A stretch of DNA of 64,000 nucleotides from positions 35,171-99,170 of the IMG/VR virus record IMGVR_UViG_3300025012_000047. The stretch is one strand, 5' to 3'. Under the pieces are notes generated by a model that did no database searches, was not told the origin of the DNA, and saw nothing but the letters and a program-made list of their open reading frames with translations. The translations under genes were made by a program, and so were the position numbers. How positions within the stretch are numbered: the stretch's first letter is position 1; the number at the start of each line of letters is the position of its first letter. Shown one piece after another: positions 9,444-47,298 of the stretch. The stretch is from a virus.

Positions 9444-9540
9444 GAGAGGTAATTTGGGAGTAGCTACCCATCTCTACACGCCTCTCTTCTTTATATTTTT
9501 AAGTTTTAGTGTAGAGAGAAATAAATGTGTAGAAAGAAGG
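9444..9540 (+). promoter_or_regulatory. Structured leader RNA, copy 1
   Basis: P1 GAGAGGT/GCCTCTC; P2 TGGG-AGTAGCTA-CCCA; TCTCTACAC (9471-9479) complementary to GTGTAGAGA (9509-9517) and GTGTAGA (9527-9533). Confidence 0.7.
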
Positions 9541-9548
9541 AAATAAAG

Positions 9549-10739
9549 ATGTTACTAACAAAAGAAGTAGAGGTTACTTGTCTGTCAAATAATAAGAAAT
9601 ATATTGAAAGTTTAGGTCATAAGTGGAAATACAAAAAGATTTTTACTATCGATGTTCATAAATTATTAGATGGTAGCAATGCACCAATCCAATGTTTATG
9701 TGATTATTGCTTAGAAGAAGGAATAGAAACAGTTATATCTAAACCATATTATAAATATACAAAGAGTCATAAAAATCAACCTATAATAAAAGACGCATGT
9801 GATAAATGCAGGCATAAGAAACAAGAAGAATTATGCTTAATTAAAAATGGAGTCAGGTATAGCCCACAGATAAAAGGTGTAGGTAGCAAAATTGCAGTTG
9901 CTAAAACTAAATATAATATTAATGGAATAGATGAAGAGTTCAAAGAAAGAGACTTAGTATTATTAACTAAAACTTATAAAAATGCAGAATCATATATGGA
10001 ATTCATTTGTAACAAACATATAGATAAAGGTGTTCAGTCTATAAGATATGGAAATTTCAAATATAAAGATCAAGATTGCAAATATTGTTCTTGGGACAAA
10101 TTAAGCAAAGATAAACGAAGAGATTTTAGTGAAGTTCAAGATTTATTTAAAGATAAAAAAGTAATTCTTCTATCAAAAGAAGAAGATTATATTAATAATC
10201 AATCACCATTGGAATATGAATGTCCAATACATAAGGGAATAATTCAAACAAAAACATATGAGGCAATGCTTCATTCTTATGGTTGTAATCTATGTAGTTA
10301 TGATATGCATAAAGGAGAAAATAACCCAATGTGGAAGGGTGGTTTCTCTGAGATAAATTCAATTTTAAGAGATTCTATTGCAGAATGGAAGAAAGAATCG
10401 ATGATAGCATCAAATTATAAATGTGTTGTAACAAATAAACGATTTGATGTAATTCATCATTTATATGGATTTGATAAAATATTTAATGATATATTTGATA
10501 ACTTAAATATTGAAAAAAGAAGATTTATTAATGAATATTCGGACGAAGAATTAGTATTGATTAGAAATGAATGTAGTAGATTACATAAAATTCATGGTGT
10601 CGGAGTTTGTTTAACTGGTGATATTCATGCACTTTTCCACAAAATTTATGGGTATGGTGAAAATAATATAGAACAATTTAATGAATTTAAGGAAAATTAT
10701 ATTAGTGGTAAATATAAATATTTAGAAGAAGTTGGTTAA
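9549..10739 (+). CDS. Homing-endonuclease-like protein, Zn ribbons plus C-terminal HNH-like domain
   Basis: N-terminal NKKY..LG....CDYC domain, CNKH/CPIH ribbons, GENNPMWKGG, and CVVT..VIHHLY..GVCLT..IH..FH..YG. Confidence 0.75.
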   Translation: MLLTKEVEVTCLSNNKKYIESLGHKWKYKKIFTIDVHKLLDGSNAPIQCLCDYCLEEGIETVISKPYYKYTKSHKNQPIIKDACDKCRHKKQEELCLIKNGVRYSPQIKGVGSKIAVAKTKYNINGIDEEFKERDLVLLTKTYKNAESYMEFICNKHIDKGVQSIRYGNFKYKDQDCKYCSWDKLSKDKRRDFSEVQDLFKDKKVILLSKEEDYINNQSPLEYECPIHKGIIQTKTYEAMLHSYGCNLCSYDMHKGENNPMWKGGFSEINSILRDSIAEWKKESMIASNYKCVVTNKRFDVIHHLYGFDKIFNDIFDNLNIEKRRFINEYSDEELVLIRNECSRLHKIHGVGVCLTGDIHALFHKIYGYGENNIEQFNEFKENYISGKYKYLEEVG

Positions 10740-10773
10740 ATATCAACTTCTTCTATTAAGGAGTCAATTAAAT

Positions 10774-46800: not shown

Positions 46801-47109
46801 GAACAATTAATCAGCAAAGCTAAACTCCTAAACATTCCATCTTATGCCAATGGTACAGGAATAAATGGTAATGGTTCATTGACAGACTTAATTAAAAATA
46901 TGCCATCTATTTTACCAAATATATCATTACAACCATTTAAAATGCCCCAATTCATTAACAATAATTCATCTGGAACAAATGTTACTATTCCAAACATTAA
47001 TTTTAACATCACATCTGTCGATGGTGTAATTAGTAGAAAAGAACTAGAAAGAGCAGCAGATTTCACTATTAAGAAAATTGAGAAGTCTCAGATTATTAGA
47101 GGAAGATGA
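40825..47109 (+). CDS. Tail tape measure protein with lytic transglycosylase (SLT) domain
   Basis: 2094 aa; TP901-type core (MDTALTDLSKV..SGNEAGTAIK); SLT motif AVIKAESNF..GASGLMQLMP..ALAAYNWG..ETRNYV. Confidence 0.93.
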   Translation: MDDLNILIKAKIDAATTNINKQIKDLQKQVTTDISVKLKVDAKDLTIINDTVEKIKKATSQSGSQKIKIFSEQDLKDQGIKYKQGVVRTIEDVEKYLKGAFNGKKFDLGAIITDSSGNIKSFEANIKSTNNQLEKVKFNLAEISKLNAKGIANTVSGYVAGDSQLSRISIKPEKIFDRTKLEAEGRQFFVSASNIIERVKKEFKSMGEVDVNFLKNSQSNITGFTASVTKADGVVRQFSFDVAKIQSGNSVQNGYVFNSEKLIDKNAGANLDALKNKMQSFTNQLERMKTSFTSPATGIADPQHLNNLVSQYNQVKNTINQVLQSSTNLSNEQRRGIVQNLADLRLQITEYKDLQRIMKTSTGGSSTSSGTLSDKDISLYQATMQNKLASLQVGKMDTVFARPEIQAEVNRLTESLARFGMIGGKSAKELNLQFAQLTTSVRSATNEISRINNAADSLVTTFTKDIFKLGLWAGAATAFYAPFRAISQGIQYVYQMDTALTDLSKVVDFSSNQLNEMANASINLGKQLGQSSVEIMKGMAEFGRVTKDQNEIIELTKVAGMASNVTTMSAADAARNITSSMITFGIEAKDSMKILNSWNQIQNNFRVSAEDLASSISKIGAASRLANTDMEDLEGMTTAIVNSLGISGNEAGTAIKSFMSRIYRTDESDPEELGKTAKALKSIMDIDTSKANGELKSFNSLISEIKSGWSEMSKQEQLAVAQSMGSTYHYSKFVALMESYQIKLDAASMARNSENSALEENAKKLDSISGRLGLLKVASEEFWASTINSNTIKGMISSVTYLVSTFANLATILALVATGLAIFKGTQITASIIAWASSSVTLTASLTASTRAFITNRAANAGYTTQMIASATATRGMSLAMHGLKVAILSNPIGLIIGAITAVVIAIDIFNQKQEENARKAEETSQKIKQEQDALNGLSEEYTKIIQSGDLTAESKSRLKGIQDELIKTYGAESKNLDLINGKYKDQIGIIDKLAVKKAKEQLASMGNSGEEALAKSKEESVTQVSFGSSRKAKEVNSVISSVMGDSVGLTNENKQLYEINGTLEKRVEILGKLSLALGGISDKDKFTKELIKEVSDEFNKLNGELKDNQTILDKFLPSKNIIEFDEAFGDVKKQVAGLKDELSKNPNDKGIIKQLQDLHNATSEKNNIEEFRSQIDKLFEGVPDKAESAINGIIDVKKAVEDVSESTEDYLSDSKDLASTIAKMNDSHKMTTEELYKLIKAHPELASAMTKVNGLYTIEKSAIEKVMEAKNKAHKESLDQKKEELEQSKKLLLAKLSLYGQEVGGITSVEKAKELVNSQSLADPENRAEYASRQSILKDLQAIEDALKGVEVSKQITPKDLIASANPDLNKTSKEILENVTGPYADLIRESAKQNKLSATLIDAVIKAESNFDSSAHNASGASGLMQLMPGTSKELGVSNVFDPAQNVEGGSKYLSQMMAAFNNDKELALAAYNWGIGNVKNALRKSGGATFADISGYAPSETRNYVSKIMSDFNARKSNETAVAEIGDRKLSEPSYTDNTDALIAEANAQSLLTAERNKSLQSEIDQAKSAKDYSLVLSKTTELIQSQSLEIQQLNDARDKINALKDASIATSPFGDTSRWYNDANEASTQYVSEFNSQTAEVQKQMESTFITMQKLRKGWQDNKKSVDDLTTSQKSLKQSLLDIQSSQADEAITALKSYYQNEKELAEEAYSDKVKLAEKAHQKVLDDLDDELNAYEETINAQIDAIDKLKSAEDYTKNLTTAQSEAQTIQDQINIYSRDTSYEGKEKLAELQAQLAEKNSSIEDMQNSHTIELRKQNLQDSLDAIKKELEAQKSAENTKYEATKERLDAEKVKLDAHYKAIMEDEAIFAEIRQGIIDGNITKINVALTKFSDGFTIDLVAKAKKIDENFSNIIDTINQIKKASDSIPNYDIPELASGTSFHKGGPAKTSEEGRELIIPPNSRPFLSGNNGPEIMNLEKGTEVVPHNLTEQLISKAKLLNIPSYANGTGINGNGSLTDLIKNMPSILPNISLQPFKMPQFINNNSSGTNVTIPNINFNITSVDGVISRKELERAADFTIKKIEKSQIIRGR

Positions 47110-47163
47110 TTTATTCTTCCTCTTTTTCTAATAAATAATATTTAAATAAATATTGATAATTTT

Positions 47164-47298
47164 ACTAAATGGCTAATGGAATTAATTACTCCATTAAAAA
47201 GAGAGTGTCCTTTCTCTCGCCATTTAGTTTTTTATATTTTAAATAAAGGACAACAAAACATTAATAAAAATAATAAAAAAGAAAAGGACGTGTTAAAA
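47164..47298 (+). promoter_or_regulatory. Structured leader RNA, copy 5
   Basis: P1 ACTAAATGGC/GCCATTTAGT; P2 TAATGGA-ATTAATTAC-TCCATTA; P3 GAGAG-TGTCCTTT-CTCTC; targets AAAGGACA (47245-47252) and AAAGGACG (47283-47290, the RBS). Confidence 0.75.

What the first reader, a model, noticed from the sequence alone, without database searches (positions are those of the whole stretch)
9444..47298. Five-copy leader RNA family: palindromic loop plus copy-specific anti-RBS segment with duplicated targets
Seen: five unrelated-looking leaders (9444, 23575, 35502, 38476, 47164) sit upstream of four endonuclease-like genes and one BRO gene and share one architecture. (i) A hairpin loop holds a self-complementary hexamer: TAGCTA three times, TAATTA once and TCGCGA once. 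The sequence changes but stays palindromic. (ii) An unpaired 6-9 nt segment unique to each copy (TCTCTACAC, CCGATA, ATACACTCC, CCTCCAAC, TGTCCTTT) is complementary to a downstream site. In four copies that site occurs twice, a proximal copy and one at or beside the Shine-Dalgarno (GTGTAGA x2, GGAGTGT x2, GTTGGAGG x2, AAAGGAC x2). Four copies are closed by a P1 stem, and U-rich tracts follow most. Segment and targets covary between copies, which is unlikely by chance. Established analogy: P1/P7 C4 antisense RNA and P4 CI RNA use loop-target pairing to silence antirepressor operons. Inference: a modular, orthogonal RNA switch silencing toxic nucleases and antirepressors, with a decoy site competing with the RBS site and the palindromic loop allowing kissing-loop dimerisation (copy-number sensing).
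Basis: partly seen in the sequence, partly recalled or inferred. Interest (0 to 1): 0.88.

Follow-up and report, generated by a model that had tools for sequence, protein, structure and literature searches.

The report
Programmable anti-RBS leader RNAs of phage nucleases
In front of selfish nuclease genes in a group of Clostridium-type phages, and in the cultured Geobacillus virus E3, sits an uncatalogued family of folded leader RNAs whose exposed loop matches two sites at the gene's ribosome-binding region. Loop and sites change together between relatives, which points to a natural set of mutually independent RNA off-switches.

Summary
All five leaders exist at the stated coordinates. Three fold into three-way junctions, one into three tandem hairpins and one into two.

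- **First hairpin:** its loop carries a T-NNNN-A palindrome in all five.
- **Anti segment:** an unpaired 6-9 nt stretch inside a terminator-like structure is complementary to two downstream boxes in four copies and to one box in copy 2. The last box lies 4-17 nt before the start codon.
- **Relatives:** homologues from about 20 viral contigs, a complete 230-kb relative and Geobacillus virus E3 settle the matter. With 92-95% identical nuclease genes, the anti segment and both boxes switch together through four triples at the copy-1 site. The same happens at the copy-3 and copy-5 sites. Stems show compensatory changes.
- **Palindromes:** 17 of 19 distinct first hairpins keep one, against a 5% background.
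- **Modularity:** leader type is uncoupled from the downstream gene.
- **Known families:** no Rfam family matches.

Most likely this is a cis-encoded RNA that pairs with the ribosome-binding region to repress translation, possibly also as a terminated short RNA acting in trans. It works like the T4 nuclease-gene hairpins, P1 C4, P4 CI and IsrK, but belongs to none of them. Kissing-loop dimerisation and the role of the first box are untested. No expression data exist. I class it as a new variant of a known kind.

The parts
9382..9411 (+). c1: terminator-like hairpin of the upstream gene, preceding the leader cassette
   Evidence: 13-bp stem followed by a T run
9444..9500 (+). c1 structured module. 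P1 9444-9450 pairs with 9480-9486. HP1 is 9455-9470 with loop AG-TAGCTA (hexamer 9461-9466). The unpaired anti segment TCTCTACAC is 9471-9479. The U-rich tail is 9487-9500.
   Evidence: Homologues L036, L037, L038 and L045 keep the architecture with compensatory changes.
9509..9517 (+). c1 target box 1 (GTGTAGAGA), 9 Watson-Crick pairs with the anti segment
9527..9533 (+). c1 target box 2 (GTGTAGA), directly 5' of the AGAAGGA Shine-Dalgarno sequence. The nuclease gene starts at 9549.
   Evidence: Covariation of this helix: 4 of 7 pairs changed on both sides.
23581..23652 (+). c2 module. HP1 is 23581-23609 (11-bp stem, loop A-TAGCTA, hexamer at 23593). HP2 is 23620-23643, with anti segment CCGATA (23629-23634) in its loop, followed by TTTCCCATT.
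   Evidence: z -7.2
23667..23672 (+). c2 single target TATCGG, just 5' of the AAAGGGG Shine-Dalgarno sequence. ATG at 23688. No second box.
   Evidence: no triad found
35491..35502 (+). c3 conserved box TTGATAGTTTTA (within TTAATTTGATAGTTTTAG), directly 5' of P1. Putative promoter -10 region (GATAGT).
   Evidence: Invariant in all c3-, c4- and L007-type homologues while the sequence further upstream diverges. Promoter function is an inference.
35502..35572 (+). c3 three-way junction. P1 35502-35509 pairs with 35556-35563. HP1 is 35511-35525 (loop T-TAGCTA). HP2 is 35528-35550 with anti loop ATACACTCC (35535-35543). U tract 35564-35572.
   Evidence: z -5.2. HP1 stem and loop covary in L002, L003, L008 and L009.
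35583..35591 (+). c3 target box 1 GGAGTGTAT, followed by ATGGTTGGT (an in-frame ATG at 35590)
35623..35634 (+). c3 target box 2, (A)GGAGTGTGTTT. It is the Shine-Dalgarno sequence of the HNH_repeat nuclease gene (ATG 35638) and can form up to 12 pairs, including 2 G-U.
   Evidence: The minimum-energy fold of the full leader pairs the anti strand with this box.
38476..38507 (+). c4 HP1: AGACAATATAGT / ACTATAcTTGTCT, loop G-TCGCGA (hexamer 38489-38494). A TATAAT hexamer lies at 38466-38471, just upstream.
38516..38548 (+). c4 HP2, a terminator-like hairpin: GAAATAGCA [ACCTCCAAC] TGCTATTTC followed by UUUUU. The anti loop is 38525-38533.
   Evidence: The stem has two compensatory pair changes in L033 and L016.
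38552..38578 (+). c4 third hairpin, a second terminator-like stem-loop with a U tract
38592..38599 (+). c4 target box 1 GTTGGAGG, followed by AGGATATGGTTGGT
38639..38647 (+). c4 target box 2 AGTTGGAGG, the Shine-Dalgarno sequence, 7 nt before ATG 38655
47098..47123 (+). c5: terminator of the upstream 2094-aa gene
47153..47164 (+). c5 box TTGATAATTTTA (putative -10 GATAAT), directly 5' of P1
   Evidence: exact match to the c3 box consensus. Promoter function is an inference.
47164..47240 (+). c5 three-way junction. P1 47164-47173 pairs with 47219-47228. HP1 is 47174-47196 (loop AT-TAATTA-C). HP2 is 47201-47218 with anti loop TGTCCTTT (47206-47213). U tract 47229-47240.
   Evidence: z -5.95. The homologue in the 230-kb relative has compensatory changes in P1 and HP1 and a new loop-and-boxes triple.
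47245..47252 (+). c5 target box 1 AAAGGACA
47283..47289 (+). c5 target box 2 AAAGGAC, the Shine-Dalgarno sequence of the BRO-N gene (ATG 47299)

Best explanation
Each copy is a self-contained 5' regulatory RNA cassette that travels with free-standing homing-endonuclease-type genes, and occasionally other small accessory genes, in Bacillota phages.

**Layout**
1. A conserved box, probably a promoter whose -10 element reads GATAGT, GATAAT or TATAAT, sits immediately 5' of the structure.
2. The first 70-110 nt fold into a module that ends in a terminator-like stem plus U tract. The module is either a three-way junction (P1, HP1, HP2) or the same hairpins in tandem.
3. One loop or junction strand of that module, the 'anti' segment, stays single-stranded. 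It is complementary to two boxes in the C-poor, unstructured spacer that follows. The second box is the Shine-Dalgarno sequence or abuts it.

**Proposed mechanism**
Pairing of the anti segment with the boxes occludes the ribosome-binding region and keeps the nuclease gene translationally silent.
- This can happen in cis on read-through transcripts.
- Because the module ends in a terminator, it probably also happens in trans, through an abundant short RNA made from the same promoter.
- The palindromic HP1 loop would let two modules pair loop to loop, for example a short RNA with the leader of a read-through mRNA. One complex would then offer two anti segments for the two boxes.

**Shown:** the architecture, the complementarity, the covariation of the anti segment with both boxes, stem covariation, palindrome maintenance, modular exchange and the absence from Rfam.

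**Inferred, with my odds:**

| Claim | Odds |
|---|---|
| RNA-level pairing is functional | 0.85 |
| Its effect is translational repression | 0.7 |
| A promoter sits at the conserved box | 0.5 |
| A terminated short form acts in trans | 0.45 |
| Loop-loop dimerisation | 0.3 |
For: **Folds.** Searches give three-way junctions for c3, c5, G001_104k and E3 (z from -4.0 to -7.2). The anti segment is unpaired in the minimum-energy structure.

**Position of box 2.** It ends 4-17 nt before the start codon in the 22 leaders for which the scan recovered the real loop-and-boxes set.

**Triple covariation at homologous positions.**
- c1-type leaders, whose nuclease genes are 92-95% identical, carry four triples: TCTCTACAC/GTGTAGAGA/GTGTAGA, TCTCCGTAC/GTACGGAGA/GTACGGA, TTCTGTGCG/CGCACAGAA/CGCAuAGAA and CTCTGCAC/GTGCAGAG/TGCAGA.
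- The anti-to-box-2 helix counted on alignment A4 is 97.6% paired. Four of its 7 pairs changed on both sides. The covariation score is 0.505 against 0.26 in shuffles, reached by 0 of 500.
- c3 versus L007: the gene is 95% identical, but the loop and both boxes change from ATACACTCC/GGAGTGT to CTCCTATG/CATAGGAG x2.
- c5 versus its homologue in the 230-kb relative: TGTCCTTT/AAAGGAC becomes TCCAACCT/AGGTTGG x2, with two compensatory pair changes in P1.

**Cognate specificity over 12 classes.** The best and second-best Watson-Crick runs average 8.3 and 6.6 bp for cognate pairs against 4.2 and 3.7 bp for non-cognate pairs. Ten of 12 cognate pairs, but only 2 of 132 non-cognate pairs, reach at least 7 and at least 5 bp.

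**Decoupling from the protein.**
- One leader type precedes unrelated ORFs. The c4-type sits before four different ORFs, one of them a GIY-YIG enzyme.
- The same leader sits before two genes only 31% identical (L036 and L049).
- One nuclease gene occurs behind different leaders.
This argues for direct RNA-RNA recognition and against protein operators.

**Other points.**
- The full-length minimum-energy folds of c3 and c4 already pair the anti strand with box 2.
- G-U pairs are tolerated in stems and target helices. The + strand folds better in 13 of 20 members, by 3.3 kcal/mol on average.
- The cultured Geobacillus virus E3 has the whole design before GP35: a 12-bp P1 with U tract, loop AC-TGATCA-C, loop segment CAACTCCC, and GGGAGTTG twice, each followed by 5 nt and an ATG.
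- Palindromic loops occur in 17 of 19 distinct HP1 hairpins against a 5.3% background. They have no second copy in cis within 2 kb.
- Precedents exist: RBS-sequestering structures on T4 homing-endonuclease mRNAs (PMC2988022), a short sRNA plus read-through mRNA from one promoter in IsrK, and P4 CI RNA pairing with two sites (PMC4825925).
Against: - No transcript data of any kind exist, so the promoter, the 3' end, the short form and repression are all unproven.
- A branched structure closed by P1 is not a canonical intrinsic terminator.
- If the -10 element is read as TAGTTT or TAATTT (an extended -10 with TG), the start site would fall inside the 5' arm of P1, and the junction could form only on transcripts coming from upstream.
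- One anti segment cannot pair with both boxes at once, so the need for two boxes is unexplained without a second RNA molecule or a switch.
- Several members (L007, L012, L016, L033, L017a) carry a different, non-palindromic 5' hairpin yet keep two boxes. This weakens any obligatory link between the palindrome and the duplicated boxes.
- Some palindromes are all A-U (TAATTA) and would give weak kissing.
- c2 has a single box, and two members (L019, G001_77k) have only 4-5 bp at box 2.
- Individually, four of the 13 class representatives tested are not significant against shuffles.
Confidence: 0.6

Rival explanations
1. Cis-only, T4-style temporal control. The module is mainly a terminator and insulator. 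On transcripts that read in from upstream genes, it folds back on the ribosome-binding region and silences the nuclease gene. Transcripts started at a proximal promoter between box 1 and box 2 (the conserved A-rich (T)ATAAATAAAAT box) lack the anti segment and are translated. No trans-acting RNA and no dimer are involved.
For: - This logic is documented for I-TevI, I-TevII, I-TevIII, segB and mobE (PMC2988022, section 12).
- An A-rich box resembling TATAAATA lies 5-10 nt upstream of box 2 in most members.
- The minimum-energy folds of the full c3 and c4 leaders pair the anti strand with box 2 in cis.
- Upstream genes end in their own terminators, so read-through is a real concern.
Against: - It does not explain why box 1 covaries with the anti segment as tightly as box 2 does.
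- It does not explain why HP1 keeps a palindromic loop.
- It does not explain why a conserved box sits directly 5' of the structure.
- In a 29% GC genome an A-rich stretch before a Shine-Dalgarno sequence is weak evidence for a promoter. The promoter scan finds no more sigma-70-like sites than shuffles do.
Confidence: 0.2
2. Decoy or timer switch, with the net effect being activation or a translation burst. The anti segment pairs first with box 1, which is nearer and transcribed earlier, leaving the real ribosome-binding site free. Repression sets in only when box 1 is occupied by a ribosome, a second RNA or slow refolding. Box 1 would then be a mimic of the ribosome-binding site that tunes or delays silencing.
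For: - Box 1 plus its flank resembles a ribosome-binding site.
- In win_c1, win_c3 and E3 it is followed by an in-frame ATG.
- Box 1 and box 2 have similar complementarity.
- IsrK shows that a short isoform can remodel its own read-through mRNA (PMC4825925).
Against: - The start codon after box 1 is not conserved in presence, frame or spacing. L038 has none; L036 and L037 are out of frame; in L033 the Shine-Dalgarno-like motif abuts the ATG.
- No computation available here distinguishes kinetic from equilibrium pairing.
Confidence: 0.12
3. DNA-level feature. The inverted anti segment and the two direct boxes are operators for a phage protein, such as an autoregulating nuclease, or are recombination or homing signals. 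The hairpins would be incidental terminators.
For: - I-TevI represses its own promoter by binding an operator (PMC2988022, section 14, mentions the operator).
- Palindromes are typical of sites bound by dimeric proteins.
Against: - At least 12 different triples exist, five of them in one genome, and they switch between phages whose nuclease genes are 92-95% identical.
- The same triple precedes unrelated ORFs.
- A protein reader would need a matching variant for each triple.
- Stems covary without sequence conservation, and G-U pairs are tolerated on the + strand only.
- The palindrome always carries 1-4 extra bases on its 5' side, which breaks DNA dyad symmetry.
Confidence: 0.04
4. Ordinary terminators plus chance complementarity in an AT-rich, purine-rich leader. 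No dedicated function.
For: - About 12 seven-mer triads are expected by chance in this genome.
- Pyrimidine-rich loops will often complement purine-rich ribosome-binding sites.
- c1, G001_77k and G001_51k fold only marginally better than shuffles.
Against: - Coordinated triple changes at homologous sites.
- The cognate versus non-cognate contrast.
- 17 of 19 palindromic loops against a 5% background.
- Recurrence of the full design in a distant, 40%-GC-leader Geobacillus phage.
Confidence: 0.02

Closest known systems
RBS-sequestering RNA structures of T4-type homing endonuclease genes (I-TevI, I-TevII, I-TevIII, segB, Aeh1 mobE; Edgell, Gibb and Belfort 2010, PMC2988022)
   Same: A selfish phage nuclease gene is kept translationally silent by RNA pairing that covers its Shine-Dalgarno sequence. 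The element lies in the gene's own 5' leader.
   Different: - T4 uses one local hairpin that contains the ribosome-binding site, with a late promoter nested inside it.
- Here a distant loop, inside a terminator-ended multi-helix module 40-120 nt upstream, pairs with two separate boxes.
- The loop and boxes are hypervariable and covary.
- A palindromic-loop hairpin is also part of the module.
- There is no sequence or structural homology.
P1/P7 C4 antisense RNA (Rfam C4 family) and P4 CI RNA
   Same: - They are cis-encoded on the same strand, upstream of the target in the same transcription unit.
- Short exposed segments pair with downstream complementary sites.
- CI pairs with two sites, seqA and seqC (PMC4825925, discussion).
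- The specificity differences between P1 and P7 reflect matched changes in RNA and target (own knowledge: Citron and Schuster 1990, cited in PMC8201110).
   Different: - C4 and CI are processed out of a longer transcript. C4 uses two loops for two different sites.
- CI's sites flank it and cause transcription termination.
- They control immunity and antirepressor operons of enterobacterial elements.
- Here one segment serves two identical boxes, both downstream. The module ends in its own terminator, the targets are nuclease-gene ribosome-binding sites in Bacillota phages, and Rfam models give no match.
IsrK of Salmonella Gifsy-1 (Hershko-Shalev et al. 2016, PMC4825925)
   Same: One promoter yields a terminated short RNA and a read-through mRNA that carries the same sequence as its leader. 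The short form acts in trans on the long form to set translation of a toxic product.
   Different: - IsrK activates translation by remodelling an inhibitory structure.
- The present design is complementary to the ribosome-binding region and so predicts repression.
- The existence of two isoforms is not shown here.
C-rich-loop sRNAs of Gram-positive bacteria (S. aureus RNAIII hairpins, RsaE; B. subtilis RoxS). From own knowledge.
   Same: An unpaired C/U-rich hairpin loop next to a terminator pairs with the G-rich Shine-Dalgarno region of its targets without need of Hfq.
   Different: - Those sRNAs are trans-encoded and use a conserved UCCC motif on many targets.
- Here each copy has its own private loop-and-boxes code and sits in cis.
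Kissing-loop dimerisation sites such as HIV-1 DIS and the oskar 3'-UTR loop (review PMC7357161)
   Same: A 6-nt self-complementary sequence lies in a 7-10 nt hairpin loop, often with purines (AG) on its 5' side. The sequence varies between relatives but stays palindromic.
   Different: - Known cases serve genome packaging or mRNA localisation, not control of a bacterial or phage gene.
- Here the palindromes are AU-rich and always of the form T-NNNN-A.
- Dimerisation is untested.

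Membership tests
Rfam C4 antisense RNA, P4 CI / IsrK-type RNAs, or any other Rfam 15 family | Match to the family covariance model at or near the gathering score | tested here: not met
   The whole window gives 0 hits at gathering thresholds. E-value scans of all five leaders and of the E3 leader give only sub-threshold noise such as miRNA and snoRNA models.
P1 C4 / P4 CI-like cis-encoded antisense regulators (functional class) | An exposed segment of an upstream same-strand RNA is complementary to downstream sites in its own operon, with matched changes between relatives | tested here: met
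   the anti segment and both boxes covary, with cognate specificity.
P1 C4 / P4 CI-like cis-encoded antisense regulators (functional class) | A stable small RNA is released by processing (RNase P or others) and acts in trans | not testable with these tools
   No RNA data are available. The run search lists only DNA runs from groundwater and sediment metagenomes.
T4-type homing-endonuclease translational hairpin | The Shine-Dalgarno sequence lies inside a local stable hairpin | tested here: not met
   The ribosome-binding regions lie in C-poor, unstructured spacers. Pairing is with a loop 40-120 nt upstream.
T4-type homing-endonuclease translational hairpin | A promoter nested so that its transcripts lack the inhibitory strand | tested here: inconclusive
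   A conserved A-rich box lies between the two boxes, but consensus scans are no better than shuffles.
Intrinsic (Rho-independent) terminator | A G+C-containing stem immediately followed by a U tract | tested here: met
   - P1 (7-12 bp) or HP2 (7-9 bp) is followed by UUUUUAUAUU-like tracts in c1, c3, c4 and c5 and in the homologues with a P1 stem or a terminator-type HP2. c2 has only UUUCCCAUU after HP2.
- In the junction forms the 'loop' is branched, which is atypical.
- Termination efficiency is unknown.
DIS-like kissing-loop dimerisation element | A 6-nt self-complementary sequence exposed in a 7-10 nt loop and maintained through sequence change | tested here: met
   17 of 19 distinct HP1 hairpins keep one, with six different hexamers. 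Background is 5.3%.
DIS-like kissing-loop dimerisation element | Formation of RNA homodimers | not testable with these tools
   This needs native gels, SEC-MALS or proximity ligation. The secondary-structure programs used here do not model kissing loops.
Group I intron carrying a homing endonuclease gene | Match to the intron core (Rfam Intron_gpI) and an interrupted host gene | tested here: not met
   No Rfam hit. The upstream genes end with stop codons and their own terminators.

The most novel reading that the evidence does not exclude
This would be a natural library of mutually orthogonal, 'programmable' riboregulators.
- Each cassette makes a terminated small RNA and a read-through mRNA from one promoter.
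- The two associate through a DIS-like palindromic kissing loop.
- The resulting bivalent complex clamps both target boxes, one by the mRNA's own loop and one by the partner's, and shuts off the selfish nuclease gene as template copy number rises.
- New specificities arise by coordinated three-site changes, and cassettes are shuffled between genes.
Probability: 0.2. Interest if true: 0.85.

Novelty: new variant of a known kind. Interest (0 to 1): 0.7.

Why it matters
- **Control of selfish nucleases.** How phages keep free-standing homing endonucleases harmless is known in detail only for T4-like phages. This family suggests that Bacillota phages solved the problem with a portable RNA cassette whose specificity is written in 7-10 nucleotides and rewritten repeatedly.
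- **Co-evolving three-site code.** At least 12 codes exist, five of them in one genome. Such a system is rare in nature and resembles engineered orthogonal riboregulators, so the family could supply ready-made parts for Gram-positive and thermophilic hosts.
- **RNA homodimers.** If the palindromic loop mediates RNA-RNA association, it would add a bacterial-virus case to the short list of functional RNA homodimers (PMC7357161).
- **Testability.** A complete copy sits in a cultured phage, Geobacillus virus E3, before GP35.

Tried and rejected
- **Covariance model.** Model R1, built from six c3-type copies, finds only c3-type copies in 135 kb of loci and in five whole related contigs. The family is too variable in sequence for it.
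- **Alignments.** MAFFT alignments of diverse members are not structure-consistent. Tool-based covariation could therefore be counted only for the anti-to-box-2 helix of the c1 type. The other helices were read directly and by script.
- **Database searches.** Nucleotide searches of the leaders against 50,697 phage records found nothing, or only E3 itself.
- **Expression.** No RNA holder is listed among the public runs.
- **Group I intron idea.** No Rfam match.
- **Leader-peptide idea.** The 'MVG' mini-ORF after box 1 in the c3 and c4 types is rejected as a general feature, because its start codon, frame and length are not conserved.
- **Partners in cis.** The HP1 palindrome has no second copy within 2 kb. 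The loop of the alternative 5' hairpin has no consistent partner.
- **Homologues that gave nothing.**
  - The copy-2 gene has no homologues in IMG/VR.
  - The BRO homologue L052 and the nuclease-gene homologue L078 lack a leader.
  - The SPbeta yomD leader is an ordinary terminator.
  - Bases 100-150 kb of phage c-st and 50-100 kb of E3 give no convincing member. The rest of c-st and the last 41 kb of E3 were not scanned.
- **Descriptor scan.** My loose three-way-junction descriptor gives many false positives in 230 kb, so its hits count only when the loop-and-boxes set is also present.

Full report
**Context.** The window is bases 35171-99170 of a 99-kb IMG/VR viral contig. Its GC content is 29%. 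Its large terminase is 73% identical to that of Clostridium phage c-st. The DNA occurs in groundwater and sediment metagenomes.

The five leaders precede these genes:

| Copy | Gene | Evidence |
|---|---|---|
| c1 | 396-aa endonuclease-like protein (9549-10739) | PHROG 'endonuclease'; weak, sub-threshold Pfam DUF723 hit |
| c2 | 569-aa protein (23688-25397) | paralogue of the c4 gene, 28% identity over 425 aa, E 5e-30 |
| c3 | HNH_repeat protein (35638-37251) | Pfam E 4e-28 |
| c4 | 523-aa protein (38655-40226) | PHROG 'homing endonuclease' |
| c5 | 113-aa BRO-N protein (47299-47640) | PHROG anti-repressor |

'Four endonuclease-like genes and one BRO gene' is therefore acceptable.

The sequences are as described. 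Folded alone, c3 and c5 give clean three-way junctions: P1 closes two hairpins and is followed by a U tract (z -5.2 and -5.95). c4 gives three tandem hairpins (z -7.5), c2 gives two (z -7.2), and c1 gives a P1 stem with a weak inner hairpin (z -2.0).

The first hairpin always has a loop made of 1-2 extra bases followed by a palindromic hexamer: TAGCTA in c1, c2 and c3, TCGCGA in c4 and TAATTA in c5. The 'anti' segment is unpaired. It is the HP2 loop in c2-c5 and the junction strand in c1.

The complement of the anti segment occurs twice downstream in c1, c3, c4 and c5 and once in c2. The last box ends 4-17 nt before the start codon.

Two corrections are needed. Only three copies have a convincing P1 stem. 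And c3 and c4 are visibly related around box 1.

**Is it chance?** On its own, a 7-mer triad is not rare here: 34 in the genome against about 12 in shuffles. Shuffling the spacer reaches the observed score in 0/200 trials for c1, c3 and c4 and in 5/200 for c5. The decisive evidence is comparative.

**Relatives.** Protein-guided and pattern-guided searches of IMG/VR brought in homologous leaders. I also fetched a complete 230-kb relative.

- **c1 site.** The nuclease gene is 92-95% identical, yet the leader carries four different triples of anti segment, box 1 and box 2: TCTCTACAC/GTGTAGAGA/GTGTAGA, TCTCCGTAC/GTACGGAGA/GTACGGA, TTCTGTGCG/CGCACAGAA/CGCAuAGAA (the lower-case u pairs as G-U) and CTCTGCAC/GTGCAGAG/TGCAGA. 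Counted on the MAFFT alignment, the anti-to-box-2 helix is 97.6% paired. Four of its 7 pairs changed on both sides. The covariation score is 0.505 against 0.26 in column shuffles (0 of 500 reach it). Sliding the partner by one to three columns drops pairing to 12-67%.
- **c3 site.** One relative, L007, has a 95% identical gene but a different terminator hairpin whose loop reads CTCCTATG. Both of its boxes read CATAGGAG.
- **c5 site.** The 230-kb relative keeps the junction, with two compensatory pair changes in P1 and a rebuilt HP1 stem. Its loop and boxes are TCCAACCT/AGGTTGGA/AGGTTGGG.
- **Across 12 classes.** Cognate anti-box pairs average 8.3 and 6.6 bp for the best and second-best Watson-Crick runs. 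Non-cognate pairs average 4.2 and 3.7 bp. Ten of 12 cognate pairs, against 2 of 132 non-cognate pairs, reach at least 7 and at least 5 bp.
- **Stems also covary.** HP1 of the c3 type runs through CAGT/ACTG, CTGT/ACAG, CTGCA/TGCAG, CGAC/GTCG and CGGT/ACCG. The c4-type terminator stem changes GAAATAGCA/TGCTATTTC to GAAGTAACA/TGTTACTTC.

**The palindrome.** Of 19 distinct first hairpins, 17 hold a self-complementary hexamer. All are of the form T-NNNN-A: TAGCTA, TCGCGA, TTGCAA, TAATTA, TCATGA and TGATCA. In comparable hairpin loops of the two genomes the background is 5.3%, or 2.3% for T-NNNN-A.

Homologous leaders swap one palindrome for another: TAGCTA, TCATGA and TGATCA at the c1 site, and TAGCTA, TTGCAA and TCGCGA at the c3 site. 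The extra bases always lie on the 5' side and are often AG. This breaks DNA dyad symmetry and recalls the loop format of known kissing-loop dimerisation sites (PMC7357161).

The hexamer has no second copy in cis within 2 kb. Its only obvious partner is therefore the same loop on another molecule, or a protein. Two exceptions (L037, L002) and a set of members with a different, non-palindromic 5' hairpin (L007, L012, L016, L017a, L033) show that the palindrome is not indispensable.

**Modularity.** Leader type and gene are uncoupled.
- The c4-type leader (GTTGGAGG boxes) precedes four different ORFs, including a GIY-YIG enzyme.
- The c3-type leader precedes both HNH_repeat genes and c4-like genes.
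- The same c1-type leader precedes genes only 31% identical.
- A further element in the 230-kb relative precedes a GIY-YIG gene.

This, together with five different codes in one genome, argues strongly against protein operators and for direct RNA-RNA recognition.

Shared boxes are plausible crossover points. They are TTAATT(T/A)GATAGTTTTAG directly 5' of the structure, and an A-rich (T)ATAAATAAAAT box before box 2.

**A cultured example.** Geobacillus virus E3 (KP144388.1) has the complete design before GP35, an HNH_repeat homologue:
- a 12-bp P1 stem with a U tract;
- HP1 CTGTGG[AC-TGATCA-C]CCACAG;
- HP2 with the loop segment CAACTCCC;
- GGGAGTTG twice, each followed by 5 nt and an in-frame ATG.

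The fold has z -4.0. The family therefore spans at least Clostridium-type groundwater phages and a thermophilic Bacillaceae phage.

**What it is not.** Rfam 15 gives nothing at gathering thresholds and only noise at E up to 10 for all five leaders and for E3. It is therefore not C4, CI/IsrK, HEARO, a group I intron or a known ribozyme or riboswitch.

**Mechanism.**

*Shown:* a structured, terminator-ended 5' module; an exposed segment complementary to the ribosome-binding region and to a second upstream box; and selection on both pairings.

*Inferred:* pairing blocks 30S access and keeps the nuclease gene silent. This parallels the RBS-sequestering structures of T4 homing-endonuclease genes (PMC2988022) and the C-rich-loop sRNAs of Gram-positive bacteria (own knowledge). 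RNAfold already pairs the anti strand with box 2 in the full c3 and c4 leaders.

The conserved box directly 5' of the structure looks like a -10 region (GATAGT, GATAAT or TATAAT) placed so that transcription would begin at P1. The terminator at the module's end would then yield a short RNA plus a read-through mRNA. That arrangement is documented for IsrK (PMC4825925) and resembles P4 CI, which pairs with two sites.

Two boxes for one anti segment imply one of two things. Either there is a switch, with box 1 acting as a competing mimic, or there are two RNA molecules per mRNA. The palindromic loop would naturally provide the second by loop-loop pairing. These last steps are hypotheses.

**Weak points.**
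- There are no transcript data.
- The reading register of the -10 element is ambiguous.
- Branched terminators are atypical.
- Some palindromes are AU-only.
- Some members lack the palindrome, the second box or strong pairing at box 2.

**Verdict.** This is a real, conserved and previously uncatalogued leader-RNA family with strong covariation evidence for loop-target pairing. The regulatory principle is known. The architecture, the private three-site codes and the palindromic loop are new.

Noticed in passing
window 31780-32640: A non-coding stretch of about 850 nt is packed with TGTTACT/GTAAC-type repeats in both orientations, which looks like iterons or an origin. An exact copy of the leader box TTGATAATTTTA lies at 32524-32535 on the minus strand, right after a terminator.
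   Followed up: no
window 23688-25397 and 38655-40226: The two large leader-controlled genes are paralogues (28% identity over 425 aa, E 5e-30). They share a YRSDFTFY...EIH(I/L)E(V/I)W motif that may be the nuclease core. Pfam does not recognise either gene. The 9549-10739 gene shares only its first ~90 residues with 38655-40226.
   Followed up: partly
L066:769-830 (Geobacillus virus E3, KP144388.1 27335-27396): The annotated start of GP35 lies inside target box 1. Three in-frame ATGs follow one another, and the last, after box 2, looks like the true start. E3 also shares the gene order nuclease-like GP11 / GP12 / TerL GP13 with window 9549-13361.
   Followed up: partly
L059:5757-5900 (230-kb relative, 104257-104400): A complete c5-type leader with both boxes is followed only by a 10-codon ORF. 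The next ORFs (53 and 91 aa) start about 130 nt later. It is possibly an orphan leader left after gene loss.
   Followed up: partly
L007:1336-1365, L012, L016, L017, L028, L033 (first 30 nt after the conserved box): An alternative conserved 5' hairpin (AGCAAAT...TGGACGCTT...GTTTGCT) replaces or precedes the palindromic-loop hairpin. Its loop has no detectable complementary partner nearby.
   Followed up: partly
window 35592-35599 and 38606-38613; homologous positions in L002, L003, L007, L009: A G/U-rich, almost C-free spacer carries the conserved octamer TGGTTGGT right after box 1. It is conserved at the nucleotide level, not as a peptide.
   Followed up: no
L080 about 36100-36300 (phage c-st about 136100-136300, minus strand): A weak hairpin plus TGGACAA twice lies upstream of CST145 and the PemK/MazF toxin gene CST144. 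It may be a distant relative of the design, or chance.
   Followed up: no
window 8216-9349 and 11625-13361: The ORF upstream of leader c1 and the large terminase both hit PHROG 15503, so the ORF is a terminase-like paralogue. The c1 cassette and a 294-aa gene lie between them.
   Followed up: no
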